Assembly (NCBI GenBank): GCA_002347565.1 | Contig: DDXR01000049.1 | Span: forward strand, 42,302-106,301 | Source of the DNA: a bacterium UBP2_UBA2255 | GTDB lineage: Bacteria; Edwardsbacteria; AC1; EtOH8 | Length of the DNA: 64,000 nucleotides | Direction of reading: 5' to 3' | In this document: one piece after another, positions 3,761 to 34,248 of the stretch | Numbering within the stretch: the first letter of the stretch is position 1 | Layout: each line of letters begins with the position of its first letter | Notes under the pieces: generated by a model | What the model was told of the DNA's origin: nothing | Seen by the model: only the letters and a program-made list of their open reading frames with translations | Database searches by the model: none | Position numbers and translations under genes: made by a program

Positions 3761-4690
3761 ATGAGACATCGCATCATTGTTGTCGCATCGATAGCCTTGA
3801 TGCTCGTCCTGGCCGTGCCGGCGTTCTCCCAGAAGACGATCATCCCCCAGATCGGCCTGGACTGGACCCGGGAGCGACCGGCGATCAAGGTGCAGGTGCT
3901 GGGCCAGGTGCGCAACCCCGGGCTCCACACCCTGCAGGCGTACGACCGGCTGGCCAGCGCCGTGGGCGCGGCCGGCGGGCCGAACGAGCAGGCGTCGATC
4001 CGCTCGGTGATCCTGATGCGCGACGGCAAGGCGATCGATACGCTCGACCTGTACCAGTACATGACCCAGAACGACCAGTCCCAGAACCCCGAGGTCAAAG
4101 ACGGGGACATCGTGTTCTTTCCCCTGGCCACCAACATGGTCACGGTCTTCGGCCAGGTGTTCAAGCCGGGGAAGTACGAGATCAAGCCGGGCGAGCGGCT
4201 GATGGACCTGGTCATCATGGCCGGCGGTTTCACGCCATTCTCGACCCGCGAGGACATCAAGGTCCAGAACATAGCCCGGCCGGACAGCGTGATAAGCATC
4301 AACGTCAAGCGGTTCGCCCTGGACCGCGACCCGGCGTTGAACATCGAGCTCAAGGCCGGCGACATCGTTACCGTGCCGACCACCCCGACCACCGTTACCG
4401 TGGTGGGACAGGTGCAGAAGGGCGGCACCTTCCCGTACGAGCCGGGAACGCTGCTGTCGTACTACCTGGGCATGGCCGGCGGGTACGCCGAGCGGGCCAG
4501 CACCGGGAACATCCGCATCAACCGCTGGGGCGGCAAGACGGTCAAGGGCAGGGAGAGCACCATCATGGAGCCGGGCGACGTGGTTGTGGTGGGGGAGATG
4601 CAGATCAAGGGCTGGCGCGACTACATCAACCTGATCGCCCAGGTGGCGACCACGGGTTTCATTGTATGGCAAGTTGCACGGGTACAATAG
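3761..4690 (+). CDS. polysaccharide export protein, Wza-like (SLBB domains) with signal peptide
   Basis: Signal peptide MRHRIIVVASIALMLVLAVPAFSQ; soluble-ligand-binding beta-grasp repeats (GDIV.VP...V.V.G.V..PG.Y); start chosen at signal peptide; ORF extends upstream to 3599. Confidence 0.7.
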   Translation: MRHRIIVVASIALMLVLAVPAFSQKTIIPQIGLDWTRERPAIKVQVLGQVRNPGLHTLQAYDRLASAVGAAGGPNEQASIRSVILMRDGKAIDTLDLYQYMTQNDQSQNPEVKDGDIVFFPLATNMVTVFGQVFKPGKYEIKPGERLMDLVIMAGGFTPFSTREDIKVQNIARPDSVISINVKRFALDRDPALNIELKAGDIVTVPTTPTTVTVVGQVQKGGTFPYEPGTLLSYYLGMAGGYAERASTGNIRINRWGGKTVKGRESTIMEPGDVVVVGEMQIKGWRDYINLIAQVATTGFIVWQVARVQ

Positions 4691-4698
4691 GAGGGACT

Positions 4699-5898
4699 AT
4701 GTTCAACAGCTTCTACGACGTCCTGGTGGTACTGGTCAAGAACCGGCGGATGATCCTCTGGAACACTGCTGGATTCACGGTCTTAGCTCTCGTACTGAGC
4801 CTGGTGATTCCTAACAAATATAAAGCCACGGCCACCTTGATGCCTCCGGTTTCACAAGGATCGAACAATTTAATGTCGATGGCGTTGCGGGGGAATTTCA
4901 TGTCCGCTGATCCCGAGATCGGCGGCACCGGGTTCATGCCGGGCATGGTCACACCATCGGACGTGTTTGCCTTCATGCTCGAGAGCGGTACTGTAGCTGA
5001 CATCGTCATCCGGGAATGCGATTTGGTCAACCACTACAAGCAGACGAAAACCTTCGTTAATAAACAGGACAAGGCGATGTACAACATCGCCAAGAAACTG
5101 AAGAAAGCCACCAAGGTCAAGGTCACGGACGAACGGTTCATCATCATCACGGTCGAGGACAAGAGCAAGACCAAGGCGGCCGAGATCGCCAACAAGTACG
5201 GCGAGGCGCTGGACCGGGTCTACGCCAAAATGACCATGACCCAGGGCGGCAAGATGCGGGAGTTCATCGAGAGAAGGTTGGGGCAGGAGGAACTCCTGCT
5301 GCGACAGACCGAGGACTCACTAAAACGGTTCCAGCAGCGTTACCGGACAATCTCGTTGGGCGACGAAATGAAGGCCGTTATCGAGATGTCGGCCACGCTG
5401 GAGGCCAAGATCATCAGCCAGAAGATCGAGCTGGACGCCATCAAGTCGTACGCCACAGCGGACAATACCCAGGTGAAAGTGATGGAGAACCAGATCCAGA
5501 AATCTCAACAGGAGCTGAACCAGCTGGTCGGCGGCAGCCGTGGCAACACGCTGTTCGTCTCGTTCGCCAAGGCCCCCGAGATCGGTGCCATGATGGGCCA
5601 GCTGACCCGGGATGTGCGGATCCACCAGGAGCTGTATGCGCTGCTGGTGCAGCAGCTGGAGCAAGCGAAAATATTGGAGGCCAAGGATACGCCCAAGGTT
5701 CAGTTCCTGGAACGCGCGGCGCCGCCGTACCGGAAGAGCTGGCCCAAGCGGTCGCTTCTAACGGCACTGGGATTAATCGCTGGACTGGTGAGCAGCATCG
5801 TCGCGATACTGGTGGCTCGCAGAATTGAGGCGTTCTTGACGGATTCCGGCCGCAGAGGTCAATTGGCGGAATTCAAGAAGATGCTTACAGCCAAGTGA
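4699..5898 (+). CDS. Wzz-like chain-length determinant / polysaccharide co-polymerase (no BY-kinase domain)
   Basis: N- and C-terminal TM helices flanking coiled-coil periplasmic region; AGGAGGGA RBS before ATG 4699; AT-rich codon usage. Confidence 0.65.
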   Translation: MFNSFYDVLVVLVKNRRMILWNTAGFTVLALVLSLVIPNKYKATATLMPPVSQGSNNLMSMALRGNFMSADPEIGGTGFMPGMVTPSDVFAFMLESGTVADIVIRECDLVNHYKQTKTFVNKQDKAMYNIAKKLKKATKVKVTDERFIIITVEDKSKTKAAEIANKYGEALDRVYAKMTMTQGGKMREFIERRLGQEELLLRQTEDSLKRFQQRYRTISLGDEMKAVIEMSATLEAKIISQKIELDAIKSYATADNTQVKVMENQIQKSQQELNQLVGGSRGNTLFVSFAKAPEIGAMMGQLTRDVRIHQELYALLVQQLEQAKILEAKDTPKVQFLERAAPPYRKSWPKRSLLTALGLIAGLVSSIVAILVARRIEAFLTDSGRRGQLAEFKKMLTAK

Positions 5899-5938
5899 TG
5901 CGACTGGAAGTACAATCGCCGTGCCCTTCTATCGAGCG

Positions 5939-7282
5939 ATGATGAAACGATTTCGGCACACCGTTGCTATTGCCTTGGGGTCCGCCCTGCTGCTGCTCGC
6001 TGTCTTTCAACAGTGGATCGTGCTGGGACTATTGTTCGGCATTAGCATCGCAGTGTCGCTTTTCTTAAAGATGCACACCAGACCGGAAATCATCCTTACG
6101 GTTTGCATGATACTTGGATTTGCACCTTCGCCATCGCGGTATTTCGGGTATGTGCTTTTTATGCTTGTCGCATTTGAACTGCTGTCTCGTCGCGGACCGA
6201 ATGCTCCGTGGAGGAACACGATTGATGTCGTTACTGTCGCCTGGTCTTGCATTGTTCTGTTTGGTCTCTTAACCGTACCACGGTGGCAGTTGCCTTTGGA
6301 AGGAATACAGTGGTCGCTGTCATTAGGATTGATGCCTCTTATTACTTATCTCATGGTCGGAGGTGGTATTTTGCGACCTGAGGAGTTGCGATGGATATTG
6401 GACAGGGGATTGCCGCTCGTATTTTTGTTCGTTGTTGGTGAGACACTTATCGCTGCGATAATCATCGCTGTTCAACAGCAATCCCTCAATAACTGGGTAG
6501 GTATTTATAGTTTTAGGAAACTGATGATACCGGACAATGGCAGCAACAGGCTGGCCGCACTGCTCGTCTTTATATCGGTGTTCAATTACACCAAGAACGT
6601 CACATGCCGCCGTGAGATGGCAAGTGAAACAAGAACAGTGATAGTATCGCTCGTAGCATTGGGACTGTCATTGTTGATCATGTCGCGCGGAGCGATCGTC
6701 GGCCTTGGTGTCGCAATAGCGGCATTCGTGTTGGGAAAGATTATCAAAGATAGACGGATCAGCGTAGTGCCGATAATTGTAATGATGCTGGTCCTATTTG
6801 TGGTTGCGAAGCCCTTCATTGATGAAGTAATATTCCGAATGCAGAACGTTCGATTTGACATGTCAACGCTCTATCGTCTCGGCATGTGGCAGCAAAGCAT
6901 TCTGTCTATCGGCAGGAACCTGGTGATCGGGTCGGGGCCCGGTCAACGGTCGTACGATATCATGAACGAGCAGCACGAGGACCCCCATAACATGGTGCTA
7001 CGCTATGGCGTAGAATACGGCGGCATAGCGGCACTGCTGATAGTGGTCATCCTGCTCTACCCGGTGATCCTTTACATAAGGCTGTTCCGCCGCGACCCTT
7101 CGTACGCGAAAAAACTATTTCTTGTGTTCAGCCCCGCGTTACTCGGTGTCACCGTTCACGCCCAGATGGATTTTGTGATAACGTCAAAGAGTTTCGGCCC
7201 GCTTTATTGGTTGGTTTGGTCGATGCAATTGCGGGCATTGCGAGACCATGATGACGGACGACTGATCAATACGTCGTCGTAG
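5939..7282 (+). CDS. Wzy-type polysaccharide polymerase / O-antigen ligase family membrane protein
   Basis: ~11 predicted TM helices, large periplasmic loop with GSGPGQ...H..N motif region typical of Wzy_C; start ambiguous (GTG 5921 or ATG 5939). Confidence 0.6.
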   Translation: MMKRFRHTVAIALGSALLLLAVFQQWIVLGLLFGISIAVSLFLKMHTRPEIILTVCMILGFAPSPSRYFGYVLFMLVAFELLSRRGPNAPWRNTIDVVTVAWSCIVLFGLLTVPRWQLPLEGIQWSLSLGLMPLITYLMVGGGILRPEELRWILDRGLPLVFLFVVGETLIAAIIIAVQQQSLNNWVGIYSFRKLMIPDNGSNRLAALLVFISVFNYTKNVTCRREMASETRTVIVSLVALGLSLLIMSRGAIVGLGVAIAAFVLGKIIKDRRISVVPIIVMMLVLFVVAKPFIDEVIFRMQNVRFDMSTLYRLGMWQQSILSIGRNLVIGSGPGQRSYDIMNEQHEDPHNMVLRYGVEYGGIAALLIVVILLYPVILYIRLFRRDPSYAKKLFLVFSPALLGVTVHAQMDFVITSKSFGPLYWLVWSMQLRALRDHDDGRLINTSS

Positions 7283-7289
7283 TATTGCG

Positions 7290-8549
7290 ATGAAAGCCTA
7301 CAGAACTATTTGGGAAAACCTGCTGTCGTTGCTGGGTCTCCAGGTCGTTAATTACCTGCTGCCGTTGGTGTCTTTCCCGTACATCGTGCGAGTTGTGGGG
7401 ATCGATGGATTTGGGTTGTTCTCATTCATATTTTCGATAAACCAGTACTTTGTCATTCTAACCGATTACGGATTTAACCTGACAGCGACGCGTGATATTT
7501 CGATAGCTCGGCATGAACCGCAAAGGGTCTCGGAGATATTTTCGGCAGTGATCATCATTAAGTCTTTGTTCTTGCTTGCCAGCATAATATTGATGACCGG
7601 CGCAGTGCTGATGGTCCCAAAACTTCACGAGCATTGGACGTTGTACATGCTGTCGATGCTCAGCGTACTAGGGAATGTTTTATTTCCGGTATGGTTCTTC
7701 CAAGGCGTCGAACTTACCAAATACATCGCGGTCATCAATGGCGCAGTTAAACTGGTAGCAACGGCCTGTATCTTTTTATTTGTAAAGGTGGGCAGTGATC
7801 TCTCGGTGTTAGTGTTCATCCAGTCAGTTGGCGTTGTCGTGGCCGGTGTGGCATCGCTTCTCCTGATCTGGCGGCAGCGATCGGTGCGATTGGTGTGGCC
7901 GAGCAGCGGGACGATCACGCGGATGATGCGGTCCGGTCGCGAAGTGTTCCTGACGATCATATCCTCGACCTTGGTCAACAACACCAACATATTTTTACTC
8001 GGCATGTTAACGGACAACATGACGGTAGGGTTCTTTTCGATCGCCGATCGGATCGTTCGGGTGTTCATATCGCTTTGCGCACCGGTCAGCACCGCAATAT
8101 TCCCTTACGTGAGTAAAGGCTTTGGCGAAGATCGAAAGAAGACGATGTCTTTCCTGCGGCGAGTATTGACCATCGGGGGGTTAGCTTTCGGTTGTTTTGT
8201 AATGGTCCTATTGATTGCGCCGGACCTGCTGGTGCGAATCGTCACCGGCAGTGATTCGTCGCGGATAAGCCTGCTGGTAAGAATCATGTCTGTGGTGCCG
8301 CTCAGCATATTCATTGACAACCTATATGGAACACAAATATTGATCAACGTCGGAAGGACATCTGATTTTCTCAAAGCGGTCTTCATTCCTGGTGTGTTAT
8401 CAGTATTGGCCGCTTTGGTAGTGTACCCTGTCTTTAAGGATCTCGGGGCGGCAGTGGTATTCACTGTCGCTGAGCTGATGATCTTGGTATTCATGATTCA
8501 CTATGTGCGAGGGCAGCAGCTGTACCTGGTTCGGGATGGGTGGTTATGA
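7290..8549 (+). CDS. wzx: Wzx oligosaccharide flippase (MOP superfamily)
   Basis: Typical Wzx N-terminus (LLSLLGLQVVNYLLPLVSFPYIVRVVGIDGFG), 12 TM helices. Confidence 0.8.
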   Translation: MKAYRTIWENLLSLLGLQVVNYLLPLVSFPYIVRVVGIDGFGLFSFIFSINQYFVILTDYGFNLTATRDISIARHEPQRVSEIFSAVIIIKSLFLLASIILMTGAVLMVPKLHEHWTLYMLSMLSVLGNVLFPVWFFQGVELTKYIAVINGAVKLVATACIFLFVKVGSDLSVLVFIQSVGVVVAGVASLLLIWRQRSVRLVWPSSGTITRMMRSGREVFLTIISSTLVNNTNIFLLGMLTDNMTVGFFSIADRIVRVFISLCAPVSTAIFPYVSKGFGEDRKKTMSFLRRVLTIGGLAFGCFVMVLLIAPDLLVRIVTGSDSSRISLLVRIMSVVPLSIFIDNLYGTQILINVGRTSDFLKAVFIPGVLSVLAALVVYPVFKDLGAAVVFTVAELMILVFMIHYVRGQQLYLVRDGWL

Positions 8550-9793
8550 AGATCGCCGTCTGGCACAACCTGCCGCATGGTGGAGGGCGTCGCGCCCTGC
8601 AGGACCATATCGCCGGACTTGCCTCGCGAGGGCATACCGTCAAAATCTGGCAGCCATCGGATGTGGCGCCACTCAATCTGCGAAAGGGGATAGCAGCTGA
8701 GCTCACACTTGTCGATCATCATTCCACATACCGGTCGGATGCTCCCTCGCCGAGAGGACTCATGCGACTGGTGGCGTATCAGCAGACCATTGCGACCCTC
8801 AATCGGAACGCGGCCGTAACCGCGTCGATGATACACCGGTCCGGTTGCGATGTACTCTTCGCCAATACCTGCCGGTTTATGGGTTCCCCGTTCATTGGAA
8901 GGCATGTGGAAATACCCTCGCTGCTGTACCTACAAGAGCCGTGCCGCGTACACTATGAAGCTATGCCTGAGAACCCATGGGCGGCCCCAGGCAGATTGAC
9001 ACGTGCCGGGAATTCGGCTCATGCGCTCGCCCGGCGTATGGAGAACGCCGTCAAGGTCTATGCTTACCGGCGAAAAGTGCGCGAGGAGATTGAGAACGCG
9101 CGGTCGTACCACCGAATCTTGGTCAACTCGTGCTATAGCCGCGAAAGCATCCTACGGGCTTATGGCATTGAAGCATCTGTGTGCTACCTGGGGGTTGATA
9201 CCGAGTTGTTCCATATGCAAGGTTCCCCGAATCGCCTGCACATGATCCTGACGGTCGGATCGGTCACCCGGCTGAAGCGCATCGATGCGGTTCTTGATGC
9301 TTTGGCCCTGGTGAGGCATCCGAGGCCGCGGTATGTGATCGTCGCCAGTACCTACGATGAGGATTATTGCCGGGAGCTCGTGAGGAACGCATCAAGGCAC
9401 GGCATCGAGTTCGAGTTGCGACGGAACGTCCCAGACGATGAACTTGTATCGTTGCTCTGCCGGGCCAAGGCGGTCGTGTACGCACCACGATTGGAACCGT
9501 TCGGGTACGGACCTCTTGAAGCCAACGCGTGCGCCACACCTGCGATCGGTATTGATGAAGGCGGGCTGCGGGAGACAATCGTCAACGGCGAGACTGGTGT
9601 GCTCGTCGAAAATGAACCCCGACATATCGCAGATGCTATCGAGATGTTGTGCCAGGACAGAGAGGCTCGCGAACGCCTCGGCGCACGAGGCAGAGAGTAC
9701 GTTATGGAGCGGTGGACGCTCCAGGCCGCGAACGAAAGACTCGCGGCTCATCTGGATCAGATCGTGGTACGATTTCCCGCAGGTGGAAGATGA
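8546..9793 (+). CDS. glycosyltransferase family 4 (GT-B fold)
   Basis: C-terminal E-x7-E region (EPFGYGPLEANACATPAIG...GETGVLV); 4-nt overlap with wzx stop. Confidence 0.75.
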   Translation: MKIAVWHNLPHGGGRRALQDHIAGLASRGHTVKIWQPSDVAPLNLRKGIAAELTLVDHHSTYRSDAPSPRGLMRLVAYQQTIATLNRNAAVTASMIHRSGCDVLFANTCRFMGSPFIGRHVEIPSLLYLQEPCRVHYEAMPENPWAAPGRLTRAGNSAHALARRMENAVKVYAYRRKVREEIENARSYHRILVNSCYSRESILRAYGIEASVCYLGVDTELFHMQGSPNRLHMILTVGSVTRLKRIDAVLDALALVRHPRPRYVIVASTYDEDYCRELVRNASRHGIEFELRRNVPDDELVSLLCRAKAVVYAPRLEPFGYGPLEANACATPAIGIDEGGLRETIVNGETGVLVENEPRHIADAIEMLCQDREARERLGARGREYVMERWTLQAANERLAAHLDQIVVRFPAGGR

Positions 9794-9797
9794 CGCT

Positions 9798-10742: not shown

Positions 10743-10870
10743 TACACCCATAAAAAGCCCACGTCATTGTTCTGGAATACGTGCCCGTTTGGGAAATCTG
10801 CAAACGACACGAGCGAAGATACCTATGGTTTTTCGGCTGTAGTGCGCCACCAGCCTATAGCAGTATAGCT

Positions 10871-11068: not shown

Positions 11069-11289
11069 TGTGGAAGTGCTCGGTCTGCGATGTGTTTATC
11101 TTACCATGCAACAACATCCCGTTGCTGACAATGCCGACGAGGCGGCTGATCGTGTTCATTCAGGATATCCAGCATCTGCCGGCGAGCGCTGGGTATGGGC
11201 CGCAAAACAGGCGTGTGCTAGAATCATGATCAACTTGTTATTCCCGTTGGTCTTTGCCAAAGGGTAACCGCTTGAATGGATACAGTAAA

Positions 11290-26524: not shown

Positions 26525-26552
26525 CCGCTTGCCTCAGACGAGCAGGGCCCCG

Positions 26553-27815: not shown

Positions 27816-28561
27816 GCAGCTCCGGCGGCGAAAATGACCGCGGCTACCGCCTACTTGAATGGGACAGCGGCTTCTTCGGGTTCGGCGTGGCGAGGCTCAC
27901 GGTGCCGACCGCAGACACCGCCGGGATGGCGGGGATCATTGATATGCTCCGGTCCCGCGGGGTGTCGCTCGCCTACTGGGCGACTGATCCGGGTGATGCC
28001 GGCGCACAACTGGCGGCTTGCAGCAACGGCGGCTGGCTGGCAGACGAGAAGGCGACGTACGTGATCGGGCTCCGCGCCCTCCCGCCGGACGGCATCCCGC
28101 CGCCGGAGGCCGAGATCAGCGAATACCGGTCGAACGAGGTTGACGATGCCCTGTACCGCCTGGCGCTCCAGAGCGGCGTCCATTCGCGTTTCCGCATTGA
28201 TCCCCGTTTCCCCCCGGGGGCCTTCGAACGGCTCTACCGGGAATGGATGCGGCGGTCGGTCGGCGGGGAGCTGGCCCGAGCCGTGCTGGTGGCGGGACCG
28301 GCCGGGCGGATATCGGGGATGCTGACCGTCGGCGAACAGGGCGGCCGCGGAGACATCGGGCTGGTGGCGGTCGATCAGGCCGCGCGAGGCCGCCATGTCG
28401 GGACCTCGCTGGTCCGCGCGGCGTTGAGGTGGTTCGTCGGCAACGGCTACCAGTCGGCGCAGGTGGTGACCCAGCGGGCCAATGTCCACGCCTGCCGGCT
28501 GTATCGGGCGTGCGGATTCGAGATCGAGCAGATCAGGAACGTCTATCATTTTTGGCTATGA
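27812..28561 (+). CDS. wecD: dTDP-fucosamine (dTDP-4-amino-4,6-dideoxygalactose) N-acetyltransferase, WecD/RffC-like GNAT
   Basis: LEWDSGFFG N-terminus and GNAT core (GLVAVDQAARGRHVGTSL) resemble E. coli WecD; ATGA overlap with upstream stop, GGAGGTGA RBS. Confidence 0.7.
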   Translation: MSSSGGENDRGYRLLEWDSGFFGFGVARLTVPTADTAGMAGIIDMLRSRGVSLAYWATDPGDAGAQLAACSNGGWLADEKATYVIGLRALPPDGIPPPEAEISEYRSNEVDDALYRLALQSGVHSRFRIDPRFPPGAFERLYREWMRRSVGGELARAVLVAGPAGRISGMLTVGEQGGRGDIGLVAVDQAARGRHVGTSLVRAALRWFVGNGYQSAQVVTQRANVHACRLYRACGFEIEQIRNVYHFWL

Positions 28562-29691
28562 CCATTCCGTTCAACAAACCGTACCTGACCGGCCGGGAGA
28601 CCGATTACATCCGGCAGGCGGTGGAATCGGGGAAGATATCCGGCGACGGCATGTTCACCAAGCGCTGCCACCGGTTCTTCGAGCAGCGCTACGGCATCCC
28701 CAGGGCGCTGCTGACGACCTCTTGCACCGACGCCCTGGAGATGGCCGCCATCCTGGCCGACATCGGGCCCGGCGACGAGGTGATCGCGCCCAGCTTCACC
28801 TTCGTCTCGACGGTCAACGCCTTCGTGCTGCGGGGCGCCCGCATCGTTTTTGCCGACAGCGGAGACGAAACGCCGAACATCGACACGTCACGGCTGGAAG
28901 GGCTGGTCACGCCCCGCACCAGGGTGATCGTGCCAGTCCACTACGGCGGCGTGGCCTGCGACATGGACGTCATCCTCTCGATCGCCGAGCGCCACGGGCT
29001 GCTGGTGGTAGAGGACGCCGCCCAGGCCGTGGAAGCCGCCTACCGCGGCCGCCAGCTGGGGACGATCGGCCACTTGGGAGCATTTTCGTTCCATGAGACC
29101 AAGAACGTCATCGCCGGCGAGGGGGGGATGCTGGCGGTCAATGACCAGCGTTTCGCGGCGCGCGCCGAGATCATCAGAGAGAAGGGAACCAACCGCGCTG
29201 CGTTTTTCCGGGGAGAGGTCGACAAGTACGGCTGGGTGGACATCGGCTCGTCCTTTCTGCCGTCGGACATCGTCGCCGCATTCCTGTACGCCCAGCTGGA
29301 GAACATCGACCGCATCCAGCGGCGGCGACTCGAGATCTGGGAACAGTACCGCCGGGGCCTGGCCGATCTGGCGGCCGACGGTTGCTGTCGCCTGCCGGTC
29401 CTTCCGGCGTATGCCAGCAACAACGCCCATCTGTTCCATTTGGTATGCGACAGCCTGAAGCAGCGGACTGAGCTGATAGAATGGCTGAAGGGCCGGGGCG
29501 TCATGGCGGTGTTCCACTACCTGTCGCTCCACCGGAGCAGCTTCTTCAAGGACAGGCACGACGGCCGGCCGCTTCCCTGCGCTGACCGGTTCAGCGATTG
29601 CCTGGTCAGGCTGCCGCTGTTCTTCGAGCTGACGGACGGCCAGGTCGAAGCGGTGATCGCCGGCGTGCGCTCGTTCTATGGCCGCGGCTGA
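28558..29691 (+). CDS. wecE: dTDP-4-amino-4,6-dideoxygalactose transaminase (DegT/WecE family, PLP-dependent)
   Basis: Near colinear similarity to E. coli WecE (IPFN.P...GSGK..GDG.FT.RC, VIMPS/APSFTFVSTVNAF, VPVHY.GVAC.MD, FSFHETKN, EIIREKGTNR, QNAHMF/NNAHLF, MAVFHY). Confidence 0.9.
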   Translation: MTIPFNKPYLTGRETDYIRQAVESGKISGDGMFTKRCHRFFEQRYGIPRALLTTSCTDALEMAAILADIGPGDEVIAPSFTFVSTVNAFVLRGARIVFADSGDETPNIDTSRLEGLVTPRTRVIVPVHYGGVACDMDVILSIAERHGLLVVEDAAQAVEAAYRGRQLGTIGHLGAFSFHETKNVIAGEGGMLAVNDQRFAARAEIIREKGTNRAAFFRGEVDKYGWVDIGSSFLPSDIVAAFLYAQLENIDRIQRRRLEIWEQYRRGLADLAADGCCRLPVLPAYASNNAHLFHLVCDSLKQRTELIEWLKGRGVMAVFHYLSLHRSSFFKDRHDGRPLPCADRFSDCLVRLPLFFELTDGQVEAVIAGVRSFYGRG

Positions 29692-29719
29692 AGCGGGGCG
29701 GCGCGACGGCGCCGCGGGG

Positions 29720-30991
29720 ATGCGGATCACGATCGTCTGCCAGCTGTACCCGCCGGAGGTCGCACCGATCGGCGTGATGGTCTCCGAGCTGGCCCGGGAT
29801 CTGGCACGGGCCGGGCACGAGGTGACGGTCGTCACCGCATTCCCCAACCATCCCCGGGGCGTGGTGTTCCCCGGATTCAGGCAGCGGCTCGTCCGCCGCG
29901 AACGGGCCGGCGGCATCACCGTGCTCCGCTGCTACATGTTCGTCACCCCCGGCCGGTCGCCCGCCGCGCGGATCGCCGGCTACCTGACGTTCGGGCTGGC
30001 CGCGGTGCTGGCGGCGCTGCGGCTGCCGCGGCAGCACGCCGTACTGGTCCCGTCGCCGCCGCTGACGAACGGCATCGTTGCGCTGGTGCTCCGCCGGCTG
30101 CTCCGTACACCCTGTGTGCTCAACATCCAGGACGTCTTCCCGGACGCGGCGATCGCCGCCGGCGTCATCAGGAATGCGGCGCTGATCAGCGCGATCCGTC
30201 GGATGGAGCTGGCCATCTACCGCGGCTGCCGCCGGATCGTAGTGATCTCTGACGGTTTCAGGCAGAACCTGGAAGCGAAGGGGGTGGCGGGCGGGAAGAT
30301 CGAAGTGATATACAACTGGCTGGACACCGCGGAGATCACGCCATTGTCGCGGGACAATCCGTTCGCCCGCCGCCATGCGCTGGCCGGCAAGTATGTCGTC
30401 CTCTACTCCGGCACCATCGGCTTGATCTCCGGCGCAGAGCTGTTGCTCGATTGCGCGCAGCGGCTGTCCGGACTGCCGGACATCCTGCTGCTGATCGTCG
30501 GGGAGGGCGTCGCCAGGGACGCCCTGGTGCGCGGCGCCGGGCAACGGGGGCTGGACAACATGCGGTTTCTCCCGTTCCAGCCACGCGAACTGCTGTCCCA
30601 AGTGCAGTCCAGCGCCGACGTGTCGGTGGTGACCCTCAAGCCGGCGATGGGGAGGACCTCGGTCCCCAGCAAGGTGCTGGGATACATGGCGGCGGCCCGT
30701 CCGGTGATCGCCAGCGTCGATCGGGACTGCGACACCAGCCGCATGATAGCGCTGGCCGACTGCGGCATCGTGACCCCGGCCGGGGATGCCCCGGCATTGA
30801 CCGCGGCGATGCTGGCGCTCTACCGGAACCGGGTGCTGGCCCGTCGGCTGGGAGCGAACGGCCGGGCGTTCATCGAGCGACACTGCTCCCGCGCAGCCGC
30901 CACTGCGGCCTACGGACGAGTACTGCGCGAGGCAGGCTGCTCCGGGTACGGGGGATGGGCAGGAGGAACGGACGATGGTGAACACCGCTAA
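29720..30991 (+). CDS. glycosyltransferase family 4 (WcaI-like)
   Basis: MRITIVCQLYPPE N-terminus typical of WcaI-type GT4; ORF extends upstream to 29678. Confidence 0.75.
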   Translation: MRITIVCQLYPPEVAPIGVMVSELARDLARAGHEVTVVTAFPNHPRGVVFPGFRQRLVRRERAGGITVLRCYMFVTPGRSPAARIAGYLTFGLAAVLAALRLPRQHAVLVPSPPLTNGIVALVLRRLLRTPCVLNIQDVFPDAAIAAGVIRNAALISAIRRMELAIYRGCRRIVVISDGFRQNLEAKGVAGGKIEVIYNWLDTAEITPLSRDNPFARRHALAGKYVVLYSGTIGLISGAELLLDCAQRLSGLPDILLLIVGEGVARDALVRGAGQRGLDNMRFLPFQPRELLSQVQSSADVSVVTLKPAMGRTSVPSKVLGYMAAARPVIASVDRDCDTSRMIALADCGIVTPAGDAPALTAAMLALYRNRVLARRLGANGRAFIERHCSRAAATAAYGRVLREAGCSGYGGWAGGTDDGEHR

Positions 30992-31991
30992 TCTTCAGCG
31001 ACGGGGGACTGCAATGCAGCATGCCAGGATCCTTTCGACAGGGAGCGGACTTCCTGAGCGGATCGTGCGGAACGAGGACCTGACACAATTCCCGCGGCAT
31101 ACCCTGGGCCTGATCGAAGAGAAGACGGGCGTCAGGGAGCGGCGTTTCGCGGACCCGTCACAGTGCACCTCGGACATCGCCGCGTTGGCGGCCTCGGCTT
31201 GCCTGAAGCGGATCGGCTTCGATCCCCTGCGCGTCGACGCGATCATCCTTGCCACTTCCTCGCCGGACCGGATCCAACCGGCGACCGCCACCCGCCTGCA
31301 GCAGCTGATCGGCGCCGCCAATGCGTTTTGCTTCGACATCAACTCGGTGTGCAGCGGCGGCGTCTACGCCCTGGCGCTGGCCGAGTCGATGATCCGTGCG
31401 GCGCGCTGCGCGACCGTGCTGGTGGTGGCGTCCGAGGTGTACTCGCGGATCCTCAACCCGGCGGATTTCTCGACATATCCTTACTTCGGCGACGGCGCCG
31501 GTGCGGTGCTGCTGGGCGCCGGTGACGCCGGACCCGAGGTGGTGGGTGCGGTGCTGCGGACCGACGGCGCCGGCGCCGATGTCATCCAGATCCCGGCCGG
31601 CGGCACGATGCTGCCCTTCCACCAGCTGCAGCAGCCGAAGGACGCCTTTTTCCGGATGAAGGGGAGGGAGGTCTTCGATTTCGCAGTCGACAAGGGTTCA
31701 CGGGTGATCGGCGAGCTGCTGGCAAGCACCGGAACACCGCGCGAAAGCATCCGTTGGGTGATCCCGCACCAGGCCAACCTCAAGATCATCGCGGAACTGT
31801 CACAACGCTGCGGCATTCCGCTGCACAAGTTCGTCATCAATCTTGACCGCTACGGCAACACGGCCGGCGCCTCGGTACTGATCGCGTTCGACGAGCTGTG
31901 CGGCAGCGGGGAACCCAGGCCGGGCGACCACGTCGTCCTCGTCGCCTTCGGCGGCGGGCTGTCGTGGGGCGCGGCGCTGATAACCATGTAA
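30975..31991 (+). CDS. 3-oxoacyl-[ACP] synthase III family (FabH-like KAS III)
   Basis: Active-site Cys context (FDINSVCSGGVYAL), His/Asn region (IPHQANLKII, YGNTAGAS); AGGAGG RBS 8 nt before ATG 30975. Confidence 0.8.
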   Translation: MVNTANLQRRGTAMQHARILSTGSGLPERIVRNEDLTQFPRHTLGLIEEKTGVRERRFADPSQCTSDIAALAASACLKRIGFDPLRVDAIILATSSPDRIQPATATRLQQLIGAANAFCFDINSVCSGGVYALALAESMIRAARCATVLVVASEVYSRILNPADFSTYPYFGDGAGAVLLGAGDAGPEVVGAVLRTDGAGADVIQIPAGGTMLPFHQLQQPKDAFFRMKGREVFDFAVDKGSRVIGELLASTGTPRESIRWVIPHQANLKIIAELSQRCGIPLHKFVINLDRYGNTAGASVLIAFDELCGSGEPRPGDHVVLVAFGGGLSWGAALITM

Positions 31992-32044
31992 CGGGCCGGC
32001 TGATCGGCCGGCGTACGAAAGGAGTGCAATCCATCATGGAAGCC

Positions 32045-32284
32045 CAGACCAAACAGCGGCTGATCGCCGCCATCAGCTCCGTGTTCGACCGCTTCAATCC
32101 CGACCAGTTCAGCGAGGAACTGATGCTGGGCGACATCCCGGACTGGGACTCGATGAACGGCATCAATCTCCAGATGGCCGTCGAATCGGAGTTCTCGGTC
32201 GAGCTCAAGGACGCGTCCCTCGCCGGCACCGACCGCGTCGCGGACATCCTGCGGCTGCTGCGCGGACAGGGTGTCGCGGTCTGA
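32045..32284 (+). CDS. acyl carrier protein
   Basis: 79-aa acidic protein with phosphopantetheine attachment DSM motif (GDIPDWDSMNGINL). Confidence 0.8.
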   Translation, partial: QTKQRLIAAISSVFDRFNPDQFSEELMLGDIPDWDSMNGINLQMAVESEFSVELKDASLAGTDRVADILRLLRGQGVAV

Positions 32285-32350
32285 CGGCCGCGGCCTGGTC
32301 GCCGCCAGAATCAGGGCAAGCCAACCGTCCCATCTAAGCGGGCTGGAGCG

Positions 32351-33013
32351 ATGCTGAAGCAACTCTACCTGTCCCCCCTGGGGTATTTCGCGTCGTTGAT
32401 GATGAATCTCGCGGCAGTGGCGCACCGCCCCTTCATGGTGTACGGCTACTACAACCGGGTGACCGGATCGTTCCACCGGCGGACCCGGATCAGCTCCACC
32501 GCGGCGCTGATCGCGAGGCGCAACCTGGACATCGCCGACAATGTCTGGGTATGGCACCATTCCATCCTCGACGCCAGCAACGGGCTGACGATCGGCCAGG
32601 GATGCCAGATCGGCGCCTGGGTGGGGATCTTCACCCACAGCAGCCATGTCGCGATCAGGCTGCTGGGCGACCGTTTCCTCCACATTGACCGGGATCAGCG
32701 CGCCGGATACCAGCGGGGCCCGGTGGCGATCGGCGAGTTCACTTTCATCGGCGCGTCATCGCTGGTCCTGCCGGGGGTGACGATCGGCAGAGGGTGCCTG
32801 ATCGCTGCCGGGTCAGTCGTCTCCCGATCGGTGCCCGACGGCTCGATCGCCGCCGGCAACCCGGCGCGGGTGGTCGGCAGGACCGCCGCGCTCGACGGCC
32901 GGCACCTCGCGGATCCCGAGGTCCAACGGACGTATTACGACCAGTCCGCCGCCGGCCGATTTCGGACCGCAGCCGGTGACACGGGGCGCGGGGGCGCCGG
33001 CGAGGGGCGATGA
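32351..33013 (+). CDS. left-handed beta-helix (hexapeptide-repeat) acyltransferase
   Basis: Repeated [LIV]-G-x-x-x-x hexads (IGQGCQIGAWVGIF..., IGEFTFIGASSLVLPGVTIGRGCLIAAGSVV). Confidence 0.75.
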   Translation: MLKQLYLSPLGYFASLMMNLAAVAHRPFMVYGYYNRVTGSFHRRTRISSTAALIARRNLDIADNVWVWHHSILDASNGLTIGQGCQIGAWVGIFTHSSHVAIRLLGDRFLHIDRDQRAGYQRGPVAIGEFTFIGASSLVLPGVTIGRGCLIAAGSVVSRSVPDGSIAAGNPARVVGRTAALDGRHLADPEVQRTYYDQSAAGRFRTAAGDTGRGGAGEGR

Positions 33014-34248
33014 GCGGCGCCAGGGCTGATGCGTGGCTGGCCGGCGCCGTCCGCGCCCTGACCCTGCTGTTTGCGTTCAGCCTGCCGGTCGGCATCGCCT
33101 TCACCCAGATCACGCTGTTGGTCGCCATCGCCGCCTGGCTGGTGCGTTGCATCGCCGCGCGCCGCTGGCCCCTGCACGCGACGCCGCTCGACGGCTGGAT
33201 CGGCCTGTTCCTGGCCGCCTCCATCGTGGCGACGCTGTTCTCGGTGCGGCCGGCCGAGAGCGCCGTCGCCCTCAAGAAATTCTACCTGGTCACCCCCGCA
33301 TACCTGCTGGCCTACGCCGTGACGGACCTGCGCCACCTGAGGATGGTGATCGCCTCGTTCCTGTTGGGGGCCGCCTTGACGGCGGGGTGGGGCTTGGCAA
33401 GGTACGCGGCGGGAATCGATCCCCGGTTGCTGGGAACGCAGACCATGGCGTTGACCTCGGGCGGCATCTACATGATGGCCGGCCTGCTGTCCCTGTCGAT
33501 GCTCTGGTCCGCGTTGGATCGGAGAAGCCATGCCGGACTGGCCGCTGCCGCGGCCCTGCTGATCACCGCGGGACTGGTGCTCACCAAGGCCGTCAGTTCG
33601 TGGCTCGGCTGGCTGGCGGGATCGCTGGCATTCATTCGCGGCCGGCGACGGGCCGCCGCCGCGGCCTCGATCGCCGTGGCCGTCCTGCTGGTCTGCCTGG
33701 TATCGTTCCGTTCGTCTTCCGCGGAATTCCTGACCGTCGACAAGGCGGGGTCGTGGCAGGTGAGGGTCAACCTGTGGCGCCTGGGATGGCAGCTGTTCCA
33801 GGACCGCCCGCTTACCGGACACGGCCTGCTGTCCCTGCAGGGGTTCTACCGGGGGATTCCCTATGACAACCCGTATTGGCACGAGGCCATCCAGACCGGG
33901 CACATGCACAACAACTTCATCCAGGTCGCCGTCACGACCGGGTTGCTGGGACTGGTCGCGTTCCTGGCGATGTGGGGCGCGATCATCGGGGTCATGTTCC
34001 GCGCGCTGTCCGCCACGCCCGGCGGCAGGCCGTACGCCCTGGGCGCCCTCGGCTGCGTCGTCGGCTTCCTCGTCAACGGCATGGCGGAGTACAATTACGG
34101 CGACTCGGAGGTTGTCACCGTGCTGTGGATGGCCGTCGGCCTGGCTCTGGCGCTGTGCCGGATGCGCCCCGGCCTGCCCTGCGGCTGCGGCGGGGCGCCG
34201 ATCCCCTCCGCACCTGCTGGCCGGCAGGACTGCGGTCATCTCGTTTGA
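33010..34248 (+). CDS. O-antigen ligase (WaaL) / Wzy_C-domain membrane protein
   Basis: Multi-TM protein with periplasmic loop carrying GHGLLS...HMHNNFIQV motif typical of O-antigen ligase/O-oligosaccharyltransferase family; ATGA overlap with upstream gene. Confidence 0.65.
   Translation: MSGARADAWLAGAVRALTLLFAFSLPVGIAFTQITLLVAIAAWLVRCIAARRWPLHATPLDGWIGLFLAASIVATLFSVRPAESAVALKKFYLVTPAYLLAYAVTDLRHLRMVIASFLLGAALTAGWGLARYAAGIDPRLLGTQTMALTSGGIYMMAGLLSLSMLWSALDRRSHAGLAAAAALLITAGLVLTKAVSSWLGWLAGSLAFIRGRRRAAAAASIAVAVLLVCLVSFRSSSAEFLTVDKAGSWQVRVNLWRLGWQLFQDRPLTGHGLLSLQGFYRGIPYDNPYWHEAIQTGHMHNNFIQVAVTTGLLGLVAFLAMWGAIIGVMFRALSATPGGRPYALGALGCVVGFLVNGMAEYNYGDSEVVTVLWMAVGLALALCRMRPGLPCGCGGAPIPSAPAGRQDCGHLV

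What the first reader, a model, noticed from the sequence alone, without database searches (positions are those of the whole stretch)
3761..34248. Two tandem Wzx/Wzy/Wzz sets in one locus: two polysaccharides, or a hybrid locus
The locus encodes:
- two Wzx flippases (7290, 19069);
- two Wzy-like polymerases (5939, 20346) plus a third Wzy_C/O-antigen-ligase-like protein (33010);
- two Wzz-like co-polymerases (4699, 17249);
- only one initiating phosphotransferase (15796) and one Wza exporter (3761).
One copy of each duplicated function lies in the AT-rich island and one in the GC-rich native part. Either two different repeat units are built on one primer, or one set is a non-functional passenger.
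Basis: partly seen in the sequence, partly recalled or inferred. Interest (0 to 1): 0.55.

Follow-up and report, generated by a model that had tools for sequence, protein, structure and literature searches.

The report
Two adjacent surface-polysaccharide gene modules
This 31-kb stretch holds two unrelated, intact gene sets for building two different cell-surface sugar polymers around one shared starter enzyme; the AT-rich part is a strain-swappable "serotype cassette", which is an ordinary arrangement for bacteria.

Summary
The two sets are not duplicates: Wzx1/Wzx2, Wzy1/Wzy2/Wzy3 and Wzz1/Wzz2 show no pairwise BLASTP similarity.

- **Module A (3.7-15.7 kb):** an SLBB exporter, a PCP, a Wzy_C polymerase, a Wzx flippase and glycosyltransferases.
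- **Module B (17.2-34.2 kb):** a short Wzz-like protein, Wzx, a Wzy of an unannotated family, sugar-modifying enzymes (WecE/WecD-like, AsnB-like, methyltransferases) and a WaaL-like protein. It looks like an O-antigen/ECA-type pathway.
- **Between them:** a conserved core, Epi1-PGT-(Wzz2)-Epi2.

The AT-rich "island" is not a foreign insertion. A near-identical strain (L023) is 98-100% identical on both flanks but carries a different wza-wzz-wzy-wzx-GT cassette, and a gene remnant marks the right-hand junction. A Candidatus Edwardsbacteria MAG keeps the same bipartite layout with different cassettes on both sides. More distant relatives show no module B within ~5-10 kb after the PGT.

Both modules are intact, and module B is under purifying selection except for Wzz2. 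So two glycans is the best reading and a non-functional passenger is unlikely. Sharing of the single PGT is plausible but unproven.

This is a new member of a known kind, of low-to-moderate interest. A ~100-bp inverted hairpin in the wza leader is a side observation.

The parts
3360..3736 (+). Sigma-70-like promoter (TTGACA-17-TAAAAT, 3360-3388) and a ~350-nt structured leader. The leader has a terminator-like hairpin plus U7 (3551-3583) and an inverted-repeat-flanked hairpin segment (~3613-3714).
   Evidence: Promoter matches 11/12 and is conserved in L008, L009 and L010. Fold z-score -5.75. No Rfam family. The segment is inverted relative to L007/L008/L023.
3737..4690 (+). Wza-like outer-membrane/periplasmic exporter (OPX-like): signal peptide, three SLBB domains, hydrophobic C-terminal helix. 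No PES domain and no lipobox.
   Evidence: Pfam SLBB/SLBB_2. NCBIfam EpsE and XrtA/PEP-CTERM exporter hits are partial and below cut-off. P0017 is 100% identical, 317 aa. Sequence.
4699..5898 (+). Wzz1: polysaccharide co-polymerase (PCP) with Wzz and GNVR domains, 2 TM helices, no kinase domain.
   Evidence: Pfam, both domains above cut-off. 73% identical to the orthologues in L008 and L023.
5939..7282 (+). Wzy1: Wzy_C-family polymerase of module A. ~10 TM helices, low GC (GC3 0.59).
   Evidence: Pfam Wzy_C 55 bits. TM count and GC3. Same position in L008, L009 and L023 but only 27-35% identical.
7290..8549 (+). Wzx1: MOP-family flippase (Polysacc_synt), 12 TM helices.
   Evidence: Pfam 176 bits over the full profile. 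39-46% identical to the positional orthologues.
8546..12153 (+). Cassette-specific enzymes of module A: GT4a (8546-9793), GT2 (9798-10742) and methyltransferase MT1 (11290-12153, 44% GC). MT1 is flanked by non-coding gaps.
   Evidence: Pfam. GC. No nucleotide similarity to L023 over 5753-12312.
12317..12445 (+). Remnant of the C-terminus of a 406-aa gene that is intact in strain L023. It is a recombination scar at the right-hand junction of cassette A.
   Evidence: tblastn: 67% identity over 43 aa, E 3e-12. blastn: 81% over 12312-12433.
12505..15736 (+). Conserved 3' block of module A: GT4b (12505-13602), GT9 heptosyltransferase-family GT (13599-14747) and SDR epimerase/reductase Epi1 (14762-15736).
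   Evidence: Pfam and NCBIfam. 97-100% identical in L023. Epi1 is 82% identical in L017.
15796..17193 (+). The only initiating enzyme: a WbaP/WcaJ-type polyprenyl-phosphate glycosyl-1-phosphate transferase (the start may be 15814).
   Evidence: Bac_transf 229 bits; TIGR03025 379 bits, above its cut-off. P0096 is 100% identical, 459 aa. 79% identical in L017. No paralogue in the window.
17249..18022 (+). Wzz2: short (257 aa), fast-evolving, 2-TM protein. Probable Wzz-like co-polymerase of module B, below family thresholds.
   Evidence: Only 39% identical in L017, and absent in L018.
18063..19010 (+). Epi2: GDP-L-fucose-synthase-like SDR, part of the conserved core.
   Evidence: NCBIfam Fcl 310 bits, below its cut-off. 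82-84% identical in L017 and L018.
19069..20352 (+). Wzx2: MOP flippase (Polysacc_synt_3), 13 TM helices. No detectable similarity to Wzx1.
20304..21713 (+). Wzy2: ~11-TM membrane protein, the putative repeat-unit polymerase of module B. It belongs to a large family without a Pfam model.
   Evidence: AF2 pLDDT 86.8. No PDB fold or sequence match. 4005 cluster representatives. 12 of 45 distant members hit TIGR04370. It is the only unassigned polytopic protein in the homologous L006 cluster.
21713..33013 (+). Module B enzymes:
- AsnB-like amidotransferase
- GT4c
- TylF O-methyltransferase
- MT2
- GT4d
- WecD-like GNAT
- WecE-type dTDP-4-amino-4,6-dideoxygalactose transaminase (28558-29691)
- GT4e
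- FabH-like KAS III
- small ACP-like ORF (32036-32284, unsupported by Pfam)
- hexapeptide acyltransferase
   Evidence: WecE model NF008687 scores 559 bits against a cut-off of 375.
33010..34248 (+). Wzy3: Wzy_C protein most similar to the solved O-antigen ligase WaaL. Putative ligase (or O-oligosaccharyltransferase) that ends module B.
   Evidence: Pfam Wzy_C 71 bits. phmmer hit to 7TPG, E 9.8e-8, with the Arg and His-x-His-Asn loop motifs aligned.

Best explanation
The locus is two independent Wzx/Wzy-dependent glycan assembly lines placed head to tail on one strand, on either side of a conserved core (GT4b-GT9-Epi1-PGT-[Wzz2]-Epi2).

**Module A**
- Genes: wza-like, wzz1, wzy1, wzx1, GT4a, GT2 and MT1, followed by the conserved GT4b, GT9 and Epi1.
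- Proposed role (inferred): an exopolysaccharide or capsule. The repeat unit is built on undecaprenyl phosphate, flipped by Wzx1, polymerised by Wzy1, and passed through the PCP (Wzz1) and the SLBB exporter.
- Its 5' ~9 kb (about 3.6-12.5 kb) is a strain-variable cassette exchanged by homologous recombination between conserved flanks. That explains the low GC.

**Module B**
- Genes: wzz2, epi2, wzx2, wzy2, three GT4s, and enzymes for dTDP-Fuc4N(Ac)-type, amidated, methylated and acylated sugars, ending in a WaaL-like protein.
- Proposed role (inferred): a second, O-antigen/ECA-like polymer. It is flipped by Wzx2, polymerised by Wzy2 and finally ligated by the WaaL-like protein to lipid A-core or another acceptor.

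**The single PGT**
- The WbaP-type PGT is ancestrally the initiator of module A. It most likely also primes module B.

**Shown versus inferred**
- Shown: gene content, non-paralogy of the two sets, intactness, the cassette swap, conservation of the bipartite layout in a related species, and purifying selection on module B.
- Inferred: the products, the acceptor of the ligase, and the sharing of the PGT.
For: - **Domain assignments:**
- **No similarity between the paired functions:**
- **Composition:** GC3 is 0.51-0.70 for 5.9-14.7 kb against 0.86-0.96 elsewhere.
- **Cassette swap in a near-identical strain:** L023 is 100%/98% identical (nt) up to 3572 and 98.8% identical over 12491-14870. In between it is 78.5% identical over wza-wzz1 and shows no similarity over 5753-12312. 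A gene remnant lies at the junction.
- **Same gene order in other relatives:** L008 and L009/L010 have the same wza-wzz-Wzy_C-wzx order. Identities are 81/73/27/46% and 68/61/35/46%, each with its own GC dip.
- **Bipartite layout in a related species:** L017, on the same MAG contig as L008, has Epi1 82%, PGT 79%, Wzz2 39% and Epi2 82%. These are followed by a different second Wzx (fused to a methyltransferase), DegT, GNAT and FabH.
- **More distant relatives end at the PGT:** in L020 and L022 the PGT (48% and 61% identical by tblastn) is followed by housekeeping genes; the L021 contig (57%) ends ~0.6 kb after it. GT9 lies near the PGT in L022 and near the 3' end of cassette A in L023.
- **Module B core is a coherent unit elsewhere:** AsnB, GT4, Wzy2, GT4, GNAT and DegT are 42-58% identical and co-linear in L006, alongside a Wzx, a WecA-type initiator and a Wzz.
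- **Wzy2:** linked to TIGR04370 through family members.
- **Wzy3:** matches WaaL 7TPG at E 9.8e-8.
- **Selection on module B:** 22 synonymous and 10 non-synonymous differences outside Wzz2.
- **Transcription signals:** one strong conserved promoter lies upstream of wza, and no intergenic terminator was found between the modules.
- **Experimental precedent for two Wzx/Wzy polymers sharing a PGT and a Wza:** A. tumefaciens UPP (bioRxiv 10.1101/2021.04.22.440995).
Against: - No product, transcript or phenotype is known; the organism is uncultured.
- Wzz2 is below family thresholds, evolves fast (6 non-synonymous, 0 synonymous changes) and is absent in L018, so it may be decaying.
- Wzy2 has no direct family hit and no structural match.
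- Wzy_C proteins can be polymerases, ligases or O-oligosaccharyltransferases, so the ligase role of Wzy3 is not proven.
- The homologous module-B core in L006 uses a WecA-type initiator rather than a Bac_transf PGT, which weakens the shared-primer inference.
- The Wza-like protein lacks the PES domain that defines OPX proteins.
- No BY-kinase is present for the PCP.
- Only 64 kb of the genome was visible.
Confidence: 0.62

Rival explanations
1. There are two glycans but not one primer. The PGT serves only module A, and module B is initiated by an unlinked WecA-type or small PGT enzyme encoded elsewhere in the genome.
For: - The homologous module-B core in L006 lies next to a PF00953 (WecA-type) transferase.
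- The PGT and GT9 lie at the 3' end of a single-module locus in more distant relatives.
- In E. coli the O-antigen initiator wecA is likewise unlinked (textbook knowledge).
Against: - No WecA or second Bac_transf gene is found in six frames of the window.
- The PGT is directly followed by Wzz2, Epi2 and Wzx2 with 40-60-bp gaps on the same strand.
- That adjacency is conserved in L017 and L018.
Confidence: 0.25
2. Module B is a protein O-glycosylation or S-layer glycan pathway. The terminal Wzy_C protein would then be an O-oligosaccharyltransferase (PglL/TfpM-like) rather than WaaL.
For: - Wzy_C is shared by WaaL and O-OTases.
- There is a weak NCBIfam hit to TfpM (E 1.9e-4, 20.6 bits).
- Relatives belong to an FCB-like lineage with T9SS components (SprA and Por_Secre_tail in L020), a group in which general O-glycosylation is common (own knowledge).
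Against: - The best solved-structure relative is WaaL (34.7 bits, E 9.8e-8).
- The presence of a Wzy and a Wzz-like protein argues for a polymer of regulated length.
- LptF/G in a relative shows that the lineage has LPS.
Confidence: 0.12
3. One set is a non-functional passenger, either the recently imported low-GC cassette or a decaying module B.
For: - Low GC and two non-coding gaps around MT1, plus a gene remnant at 12317-12445.
- Wzz2 shows 6 non-synonymous and 0 synonymous changes and is dispensable in L018.
Against: - All Wzx, Wzy, PCP and GT ORFs are full length with full-profile domain matches.
- The promoter, the leader and the four-gene head of module A are conserved in five relatives.
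- Module B genes other than Wzz2 show mostly synonymous change.
Confidence: 0.07
4. Both sets cooperate on one complex polymer, for example a block or branched polysaccharide needing two flippases and two polymerases.
For: All genes lie on one strand with no predicted intergenic terminator, and there is a single initiator and a single exporter.
Against: - The two halves vary independently between strains and species. Cassette A is swapped in L023 while GT4b, GT9 and Epi1 stay the same, and L017 has a different module B.
- More distant relatives have only one module.
- The module-B core occurs on its own in L006.
Confidence: 0.05

Closest known systems
Group 1-type capsule / K-locus architecture (Klebsiella, E. 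coli group 1 and Acinetobacter baumannii K loci; own knowledge)
   Same: - Conserved export genes (wza, PCP) sit at the 5' end.
- The centre is low-GC and strain-variable, with wzx, wzy and GTs.
- A conserved initiating transferase and sugar-nucleotide genes sit at the 3' end.
- Whole cassettes are exchanged by recombination in conserved flanks.
   Different: - The exporter lacks the PES domain and lipidation.
- The PCP has no kinase domain, and no Wzb or BY-kinase is present.
- wza and wzz themselves are part of the swapped segment.
- A second complete Wzx/Wzy module follows directly after the initiator.
Shared-initiator dual pathways: WecA for ECA plus O-antigen in Enterobacterales, WbpL for CPA plus OSA in P. 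aeruginosa (own knowledge), and UppE for the two unipolar polysaccharides of A. tumefaciens (bioRxiv 10.1101/2021.04.22.440995)
   Same: One polyprenyl-phosphate sugar-phosphate transferase can feed two polymers, each with its own polymerase or flippase. In Agrobacterium the Wza and PGT are shared while two Wzy and two Wzx homologues are involved.
   Different: - Here sharing is only inferred.
- In the known cases the pathways are scattered or use a WecA-type enzyme. Here both modules abut a WbaP-type PGT in one 31-kb co-directional array.
Enterobacterial common antigen / O-antigen Wzx-Wzy-Wzz-WaaL pathway
   Same: Module B has a WecE-type transaminase above its curated cut-off, a WecD-like acetyltransferase (the Fuc4NAc branch), a Wzx, a Wzy, a short Wzz-like protein whose best (non-significant) hits are WzzE, and a WaaL-like Wzy_C protein.
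   Different: - No WecA, WecG or WecF, and no WzyE-family polymerase.
- It has extra AsnB-like amidotransferase, methyltransferases and FabH/hexapeptide acyl-modification genes.
- Wzz2 is only 257 aa and below threshold.
Adjacent O- and K-antigen loci of Vibrio species, and cps next to rfb in Klebsiella (own knowledge)
   Same: Two surface-polysaccharide gene clusters lie side by side at one chromosomal site, and each varies between strains.
   Different: Different gene families and flanks. This case is from an uncultured lineage whose relatives are labelled Candidatus Edwardsbacteria.

Membership tests
Wzx/Wzy-dependent polysaccharide pathway (module A) | MOP-family flippase, integral-membrane polymerase, polyprenyl-phosphate initiating transferase, and PCP plus OPX for export | tested here: met
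   Wzx1 PF01943 176 bits; Wzy1 Wzy_C 55 bits; PGT Bac_transf 229 bits; Wzz1 Wzz plus GNVR; SLBB exporter.
Wzx/Wzy-dependent polysaccharide pathway (module B) | Its own flippase and its own polymerase | tested here: inconclusive
   The flippase is met (PF13440, 52 bits). The polymerase has no direct family hit and is linked to TIGR04370 only through 12 of 45 distant homologues, with one weak PF14296 hit. There is no PDB fold match.
OPX (Wza) outer-membrane polysaccharide export proteins | N-terminal Poly_export/PES domain (PF02563) | tested here: not met
   No PF02563 hit. Only ~18 residues separate the signal peptide from the first SLBB domain. More distant homologues of 411-449 aa do carry PF02563.
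OPX (Wza) outer-membrane polysaccharide export proteins | SLBB (soluble-ligand-binding beta-grasp) repeats | tested here: met
   SLBB 104 bits (3 stretches) and SLBB_2 76 bits.
OPX (Wza) outer-membrane polysaccharide export proteins | Lipoprotein signal (lipobox Cys) and a C-terminal membrane-spanning helix, as in E. coli Wza | tested here: inconclusive
   The signal peptide ends ...VPAFS/QK with no Cys, so the protein is not lipidated. A hydrophobic C-terminal stretch, DYINLIAQVATTGFIVWQVARVQ, is present but its role is untested.
PCP (Wzz/Wzc) co-polymerases - Wzz1 | Wzz N-terminal domain, GNVR/Pro-rich motif before TM2, and two TM helices flanking a periplasmic coiled region | tested here: met
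   Wzz 30.1 bits (cut-off 25.5), GNVR 43.6 bits (cut-off 27.7), 2 TM helices...PPYRKSWPKRSLL... before TM2.
PCP (Wzz/Wzc) co-polymerases - Wzz2 | Same features as for Wzz1 | tested here: inconclusive
   - Wzz 23.7 bits, below the 25.5 cut-off; GNVR 17.2 bits, below the 27.7 cut-off.
- PDB best hits are WzzE and Wzc at E 0.6-1.1.
- hhalign against the Wzz1 family gives E 0.069 over 40 residues.
- tblastn with the L006 Wzz gives E 0.003.
- 2 TM helices and [11 protein letters not shown] before TM2.
- The single-sequence AF2 model is unusable.
O-antigen ligase WaaL - Wzy3 | Wzy_C domain with the conserved periplasmic-loop Arg and His residues, and similarity to a solved WaaL | tested here: met
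   Wzy_C 71 bits. Hit to 7TPG at E 9.8e-8, with qvRvnlW aligned to gvRlkiW and GHMHNN aligned to EHAHND. These features are shared with some Wzy and O-OTases, so they do not prove ligase activity.
O-antigen ligase WaaL - Wzy3 | Transfers Und-PP-linked glycan to lipid A-core | not testable with these tools
   Needs biochemistry or genetics. LPS in the lineage is suggested only by LptF/G in relative L020.
Mobile genomic island | Integrase or transposase, tRNA or att-site direct repeats at the borders, insertion into an otherwise continuous locus | tested here: not met
   No such Pfam hit in 3.5-15 kb. The only tRNA is at 48078. No flanking repeats. Relatives have a low-GC cassette at the same place.
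Serotype-variable polysaccharide cassette | Near-identical flanks with a divergent or non-homologous centre between closely related genomes | tested here: met
   L023 against the window: 98-100% identity at both flanks, 78.5% over wza-wzz1, and none over 5753-12312. A gene remnant lies at the junction.

The most novel reading that the evidence does not exclude
A 'dual-cassette' antigenic-variation locus. One conserved WbaP-type PGT core primes two independently swappable Wzx/Wzy cassettes: an exported EPS on its 5' side and a ligated O-antigen-like polymer on its 3' side. The whole array would be driven from one conserved promoter and leader that contains an invertible ~100-bp hairpin acting as a phase switch. 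This would be in an uncultured lineage labelled Candidatus Edwardsbacteria.
Probability: 0.2. Interest if true: 0.5.

Novelty: new member of a known kind. Interest (0 to 1): 0.27.

Why it matters
It shows that an uncultured, poorly known bacterial lineage organises and diversifies its surface glycans by the same rules as well-studied pathogens: conserved export and initiation genes, swappable low-GC serotype cassettes, and neighbouring capsule-like and O-antigen-like modules.

In practice, low GC plus 'duplicate' wzx/wzy genes should not be read as a foreign island or as redundancy.

The work also flags a large family with no Pfam model (about 4000 cluster representatives) as probable repeat-unit polymerases. 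It also identifies an SLBB-only exporter that lacks the PES domain. Both are worth annotating.

If the single PGT really primes both polymers, the locus would be a compact natural example of substrate partitioning between two Wzx/Wzy lines.

Tried and rejected
- **Exact-sequence look-up of the 465-aa PGT:** nothing on record, because the start codon called in the collection differs.
- **PGT-based scans of genome contigs and metagenome contigs:** only distant hits (28-56% identity), no syntenic loci. Relatives were found instead through the search for homologous proteins followed by the look-up of encoding contigs.
- **Wzy2:** no hit with Pfam or NCBIfam on the protein or its 15 close homologues. 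A PDB profile search gave noise only. Foldseek of a confident model against the PDB gave TM-scores of 0.14 or less.
- **Wzz2:** the single-sequence AlphaFold model was too poor to use (pLDDT 49.5). hhalign against the Wzz1 family was weak.
- **Paralogy or duplication hypothesis:** rejected, since BLASTP finds no similarity between the members of any pair.
- **Mobile-island hypothesis:** rejected; no tRNA, repeats or integrase.
- **Teichuronic-acid reading:** the only support is a 31.6-bit TuaB hit for Wzx2, far below the 580-bit cut-off. An exporter, a WaaL-like protein and LptFG in a relative point to a diderm organism instead.
- **ACP assignment for 32036-32284:** not supported by Pfam or NCBIfam.
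- **Leader:** no Rfam family. The inverted-repeat motif occurs nowhere else in the window. Flipping the hairpin segment does not change the predicted RNA fold.

Full report
**Setting.** The window is about 68-70% GC, and every gene between 0.2 and 40 kb lies on the + strand. GC falls to 46-57% between roughly 5 and 13.5 kb. The polysaccharide locus runs from a promoter at 3360 to the stop codon at 34248.
- Upstream lie thymidine phosphorylase, an SDR, an RmlC-like epimerase and a DAO-family oxidoreductase. The RmlC-like gene is 1538-2176, not the 1534-2205 frame.
- Downstream lie a class I/II aminotransferase (hisC-like by position and length; not tested beyond Pfam), cmk, plsC, ispH, rpsA and, further on, a V-type ATPase operon.
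- The closest database relatives are MAG proteins that submitters labelled Candidatus Edwardsbacteria.

**Observation check.**
- Module A side: an SLBB-domain exporter (3737-4690), a Wzz+GNVR co-polymerase (4699-5898), a Wzy_C polymerase (5939-7282), a Polysacc_synt flippase (7290-8549), GT4, GT2, a methyltransferase, GT4, GT9 and an SDR.
- Centre: a WbaP/WcaJ-type phosphoglycosyl transferase (15796-17193; TIGR03025 379 bits, above its cut-off).
- Module B side:
  - a 257-aa two-TM protein with sub-threshold Wzz similarity (17249-18022);
  - an Fcl-like SDR, a Polysacc_synt_3 flippase (19069-20352) and an 11-TM protein with no family hit (20304/20346-21713);
  - an AsnB-like amidotransferase, three GT4s and two methyltransferases;
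  - a WecD-like GNAT and a WecE-type transaminase (559 bits against a cut-off of 375);
  - a FabH-like KAS III, a hexapeptide acyltransferase and a second Wzy_C protein (33010-34248).
- All ORFs are uninterrupted.
- No other Bac_transf or WecA-type gene is detectable in six frames of the window.

**The two sets are not duplicates.** All-against-all BLASTP finds no similarity between Wzx1 and Wzx2, among Wzy1, Wzy2 and Wzy3, or between Wzz1 and Wzz2. They are analogous components from different subfamilies, not a tandem duplication.

**The two doubtful members.**
- *Wzy2.* It gives a confident AlphaFold model (pLDDT 86.8). It has no PDB match by sequence or by fold. A profile search of 1.84 billion representatives shows a large family: 4005 at E ≤ 1e-3 and 1018 at E ≤ 1e-30. 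Of 45 sampled members, 12 hit TIGR04370 'oligosaccharide repeat unit polymerase' (best 7e-10), one weakly hits PF14296, and two are fused to a GT4 or a methyltransferase. In locus L006 its homologue is the only unassigned polytopic protein in a Wzx+Wzz+WecA cluster. I therefore accept it as a probable Wzy, on indirect evidence.
- *Wzz2.* It is weaker. Its Pfam Wzz score is 23.7 bits against a cut-off of 25.5. Its best PDB hits are WzzE (N-terminus) and Wzc (TM2 region), at E about 1. hhalign against the Wzz1 family gives E 0.069. The genuine Wzz of L006 finds it at E 0.003. It has the two-TM topology and a Pro-rich motif before TM2. It also evolves unusually: 6 non-synonymous and 0 synonymous differences against two 99.7%-identical contigs, only 39% identity to the L017 orthologue while its neighbours are about 80% identical, and absence in L018.

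**What the AT-rich 'island' is.** GC3 is 0.51-0.70 for the genes from wzy1 to GT9. It is 0.78 for wzz1, 0.88 for wza, and 0.86-0.96 elsewhere. Related loci settle its nature.
- A JGI contig (L023) comes from a near-identical strain.
  - Nucleotide identity is 100% over 3079-3279, 98% over 3415-3572 and 98.8% over 12491-14870. GT4b is 98.6% and GT9 96.9% identical at protein level.
  - In between, identity is only 78.5% over wza-wzz1, and there is no similarity at all over 5753-12312.
  - There L023 carries a different Wzy_C (28%), Wzx (39%), GTs and a 406-aa gene.
- The window's non-coding gap at 12317-12445 still encodes a 43-residue remnant of that 406-aa gene (67% identity, E 3e-12). This is a recombination scar.
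- The Edwardsbacteria MAG (L008) and a third lineage (L009/L010) have the same wza-wzz-Wzy_C-wzx-GT order. They show the same identity gradient (81/73/27/46% and 68/61/35/46%) and their own GC dips, down to 30% in L009.
- There is no tRNA, integrase or flanking repeat.
- The low-GC block is therefore the strain-variable centre of a conserved locus, as in classical capsule and O-antigen loci. wza and wzz1 travel with it.

**The bipartite layout is conserved.** L017 overlaps L008 on the same MAG contig. It shows Epi1 (82%), PGT (79%), the Wzz2 orthologue (39%) and Epi2 (82%). These are followed by a different second flippase (fused to a methyltransferase), DegT, WbqC, GNAT, FabH, KR and GT2s.
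- A second Wzx-containing module after the PGT core is thus shared by a related species, but with different content. Module B is a second variable region.
- In more distant relatives (PGT 48%, 57% and 61% identical by tblastn: L020, L021, L022), no second module follows the PGT. In L020 and L022 it is followed by housekeeping genes (PGI, NTP-transferase, metK, ahcY, LptFG); the L021 contig ends ~0.6 kb after it.
- GT9 lies just upstream of the PGT in L022, and next to Epi1 at the 3' end of cassette A in L023.
- This suggests that the PGT is ancestrally the 3' anchor of module A and that module B was added later. The inference is tentative because the flanks are rearranged.
- The module-B core (AsnB, GT4c, Wzy2, GT4d, GNAT, DegT) is co-linear and 42-58% identical in an unrelated ~50% GC contig (L006). 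There it sits with a Wzx, a WecA-type initiator and a Wzz. It is a coherent, transferable glycan unit.

**Functionality.** Module B differs from contigs L005 and L019 (99.7% nt identity) by 22 synonymous and 10 non-synonymous substitutions outside Wzz2, which indicates purifying selection. Module A's promoter (TTGACA-17-TAAAAT, 11/12), its leader and its four-gene head are conserved across relatives. No intergenic terminator-like site separates the modules, although the scan is crude. The 'non-functional passenger' alternative is therefore unlikely.

**Likely mechanism** (inferred from established knowledge of Wzx/Wzy pathways).
- The PGT makes Und-PP-hexose.
- *Module A.* GT4b and GT9 (conserved) and GT4a and GT2 (cassette-specific) complete a repeat unit. 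Wzx1 flips it and Wzy1 polymerises it. Wzz1 (a kinase-less PCP) and the SLBB exporter move it to the surface as an EPS or capsule.
- *Module B.* It builds a second unit containing a Fuc4N(Ac)-type sugar (WecE/WecD-like), probably an amidated uronic acid (AsnB-like), and methylated and acylated residues. Wzx2 flips it and Wzy2 polymerises it.
- *Ligation.* The WaaL-like Wzy3 hits the solved WaaL 7TPG at E 9.8e-8, with the loop Arg and the HxHN motif aligned. It would ligate the polymer to lipid A-core, or possibly to protein.
- Whether module B uses the same PGT is open. Adjacency argues for it; the WecA in L006 argues against it.
- Sharing has precedent: WecA and WbpL (own knowledge), and UppE/UppC with two Wzy and two Wzx in Agrobacterium.

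**Comparison and novelty.** The closest known systems are K-locus-type capsule loci, dual pathways that share an initiator, the ECA/O-antigen pathway, and adjacent O/K loci of Vibrio and Klebsiella. Departures from these are:
- an OPX-like exporter without a PES domain or lipobox;
- a PCP without a kinase;
- a Wzy from a family with no Pfam model;
- two variable cassettes abutting one PGT core.

None of these changes the category. This is a new member of a known kind in an uncultured lineage. A specialist would not be surprised by two neighbouring Wzx/Wzy clusters or by a single linked initiator.

**Side observation.** The ~350-nt leader upstream of wza is strongly structured (z -5.75). It contains a terminator-like hairpin followed by U7 (3551-3583) and has no Rfam match.
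- A ~100-bp quasi-palindromic segment (about 3613-3714) is bounded by imperfect inverted repeats.
- In the window it is in the opposite orientation to both the near-identical strain L023 and the other species L007/L008. Local alignment scores are 97-146 for the reverse complement against 20-37 for the direct orientation.
- This could be a DNA inversion switch or a template-switch inversion of a quasi-palindrome.
- Flipping it does not alter the predicted RNA fold. No recombinase gene was seen, and the repeat motif occurs nowhere else in the window.
- It was not resolved here.

Noticed in passing
window 3600-3714 (compare L008 9777-9896 and L023 399-481): A ~100-bp quasi-palindromic segment in the wza leader, flanked by imperfect inverted repeats (TGCATCGAGCAGCCCGCCG / CGGCGGGCATATCGAGAGGCGCGGCC). 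In the window it is inverted relative to a near-identical strain and to a related species. Alignment scores are 97-146 for the reverse complement against 20-37 for the direct orientation. It is either a candidate invertible switch or a quasi-palindrome template-switch inversion.
   Followed up: partly
window 3360-3736: A conserved sigma-70-like promoter (TTGACA-17-TAAAAT) is followed by a ~350-nt highly structured leader (z -5.75). The leader has a terminator-like hairpin plus U7 at 3551-3583, and an analogous hairpin plus U-run exists in L009. There is no Rfam family. It may be an attenuation or antitermination element for the polysaccharide operon.
   Followed up: partly
window 12317-12445: The non-coding gap before GT4b retains a 43-aa remnant (67% identity, E 3e-12) of the C-terminus of a 406-aa gene that is intact in strain L023 (7480-8700). 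This is a scar of the cassette exchange.
   Followed up: yes
window 17249-18022: The Wzz2 gene carries 6 non-synonymous and 0 synonymous differences against 99.7%-identical contigs, while neighbouring genes show 22 synonymous and 10 non-synonymous. Its orthologue in L017 is only 39% identical (neighbours about 80%), and it is missing in L018. Selection on it is either relaxed or diversifying.
   Followed up: partly
window 20304-21713: The putative polymerase belongs to a large family (4005 cluster representatives at E ≤ 1e-3) with no Pfam model. A confident AlphaFold model (pLDDT 86.8) has no Foldseek match in the PDB. Only some distant members reach TIGR04370.
   Followed up: partly
window 3737-4690: The Wza-like exporter has three SLBB domains but no Poly_export/PES domain and no lipobox. 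Homologues of 411-449 aa in more distant relatives do carry PF02563.
   Followed up: partly
window 10743-12504: The methyltransferase gene (11290-12153, 44% GC, GC3 0.51) is the lowest-GC gene. It sits between two AT-rich non-coding gaps of ~550 and ~350 bp inside the cassette, which looks like a later insertion or replacement.
   Followed up: no
window 1534-2205 versus 1538-2176: The longest ORF here (1534-2205) is in the wrong frame (GC1 0.95, GC3 0.50, no Pfam hit). The real gene is 1538-2176, an RmlC-like dTDP-4-dehydrorhamnose 3,5-epimerase. With the neighbouring SDR and DAO genes it is conserved upstream of wza in relatives.
   Followed up: yes
window 32036-32284: A small ORF lies between the FabH-like gene and the hexapeptide acyltransferase and has a DWDSM motif reminiscent of an acyl carrier protein. 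It has no Pfam or NCBIfam support.
   Followed up: partly
L005 (starts at window 16657) and L019 (starts at window 15534): Two independent ENA assemblies, 99.7% identical to the window, both break just downstream of cassette A, inside PGT or Epi1. This is consistent with co-existing strains that differ in the cassette, but it was not tested with reads.
   Followed up: no
window 39625-41385 and 50680-61594: A subtilase with a C-terminal FlgD_ig domain, and a V-type ATPase operon with an embedded DUF6754 gene. Relatives carry SprA and Por_Secre_tail (T9SS) and LptFG. This is context suggesting an FCB-like diderm.
   Followed up: no
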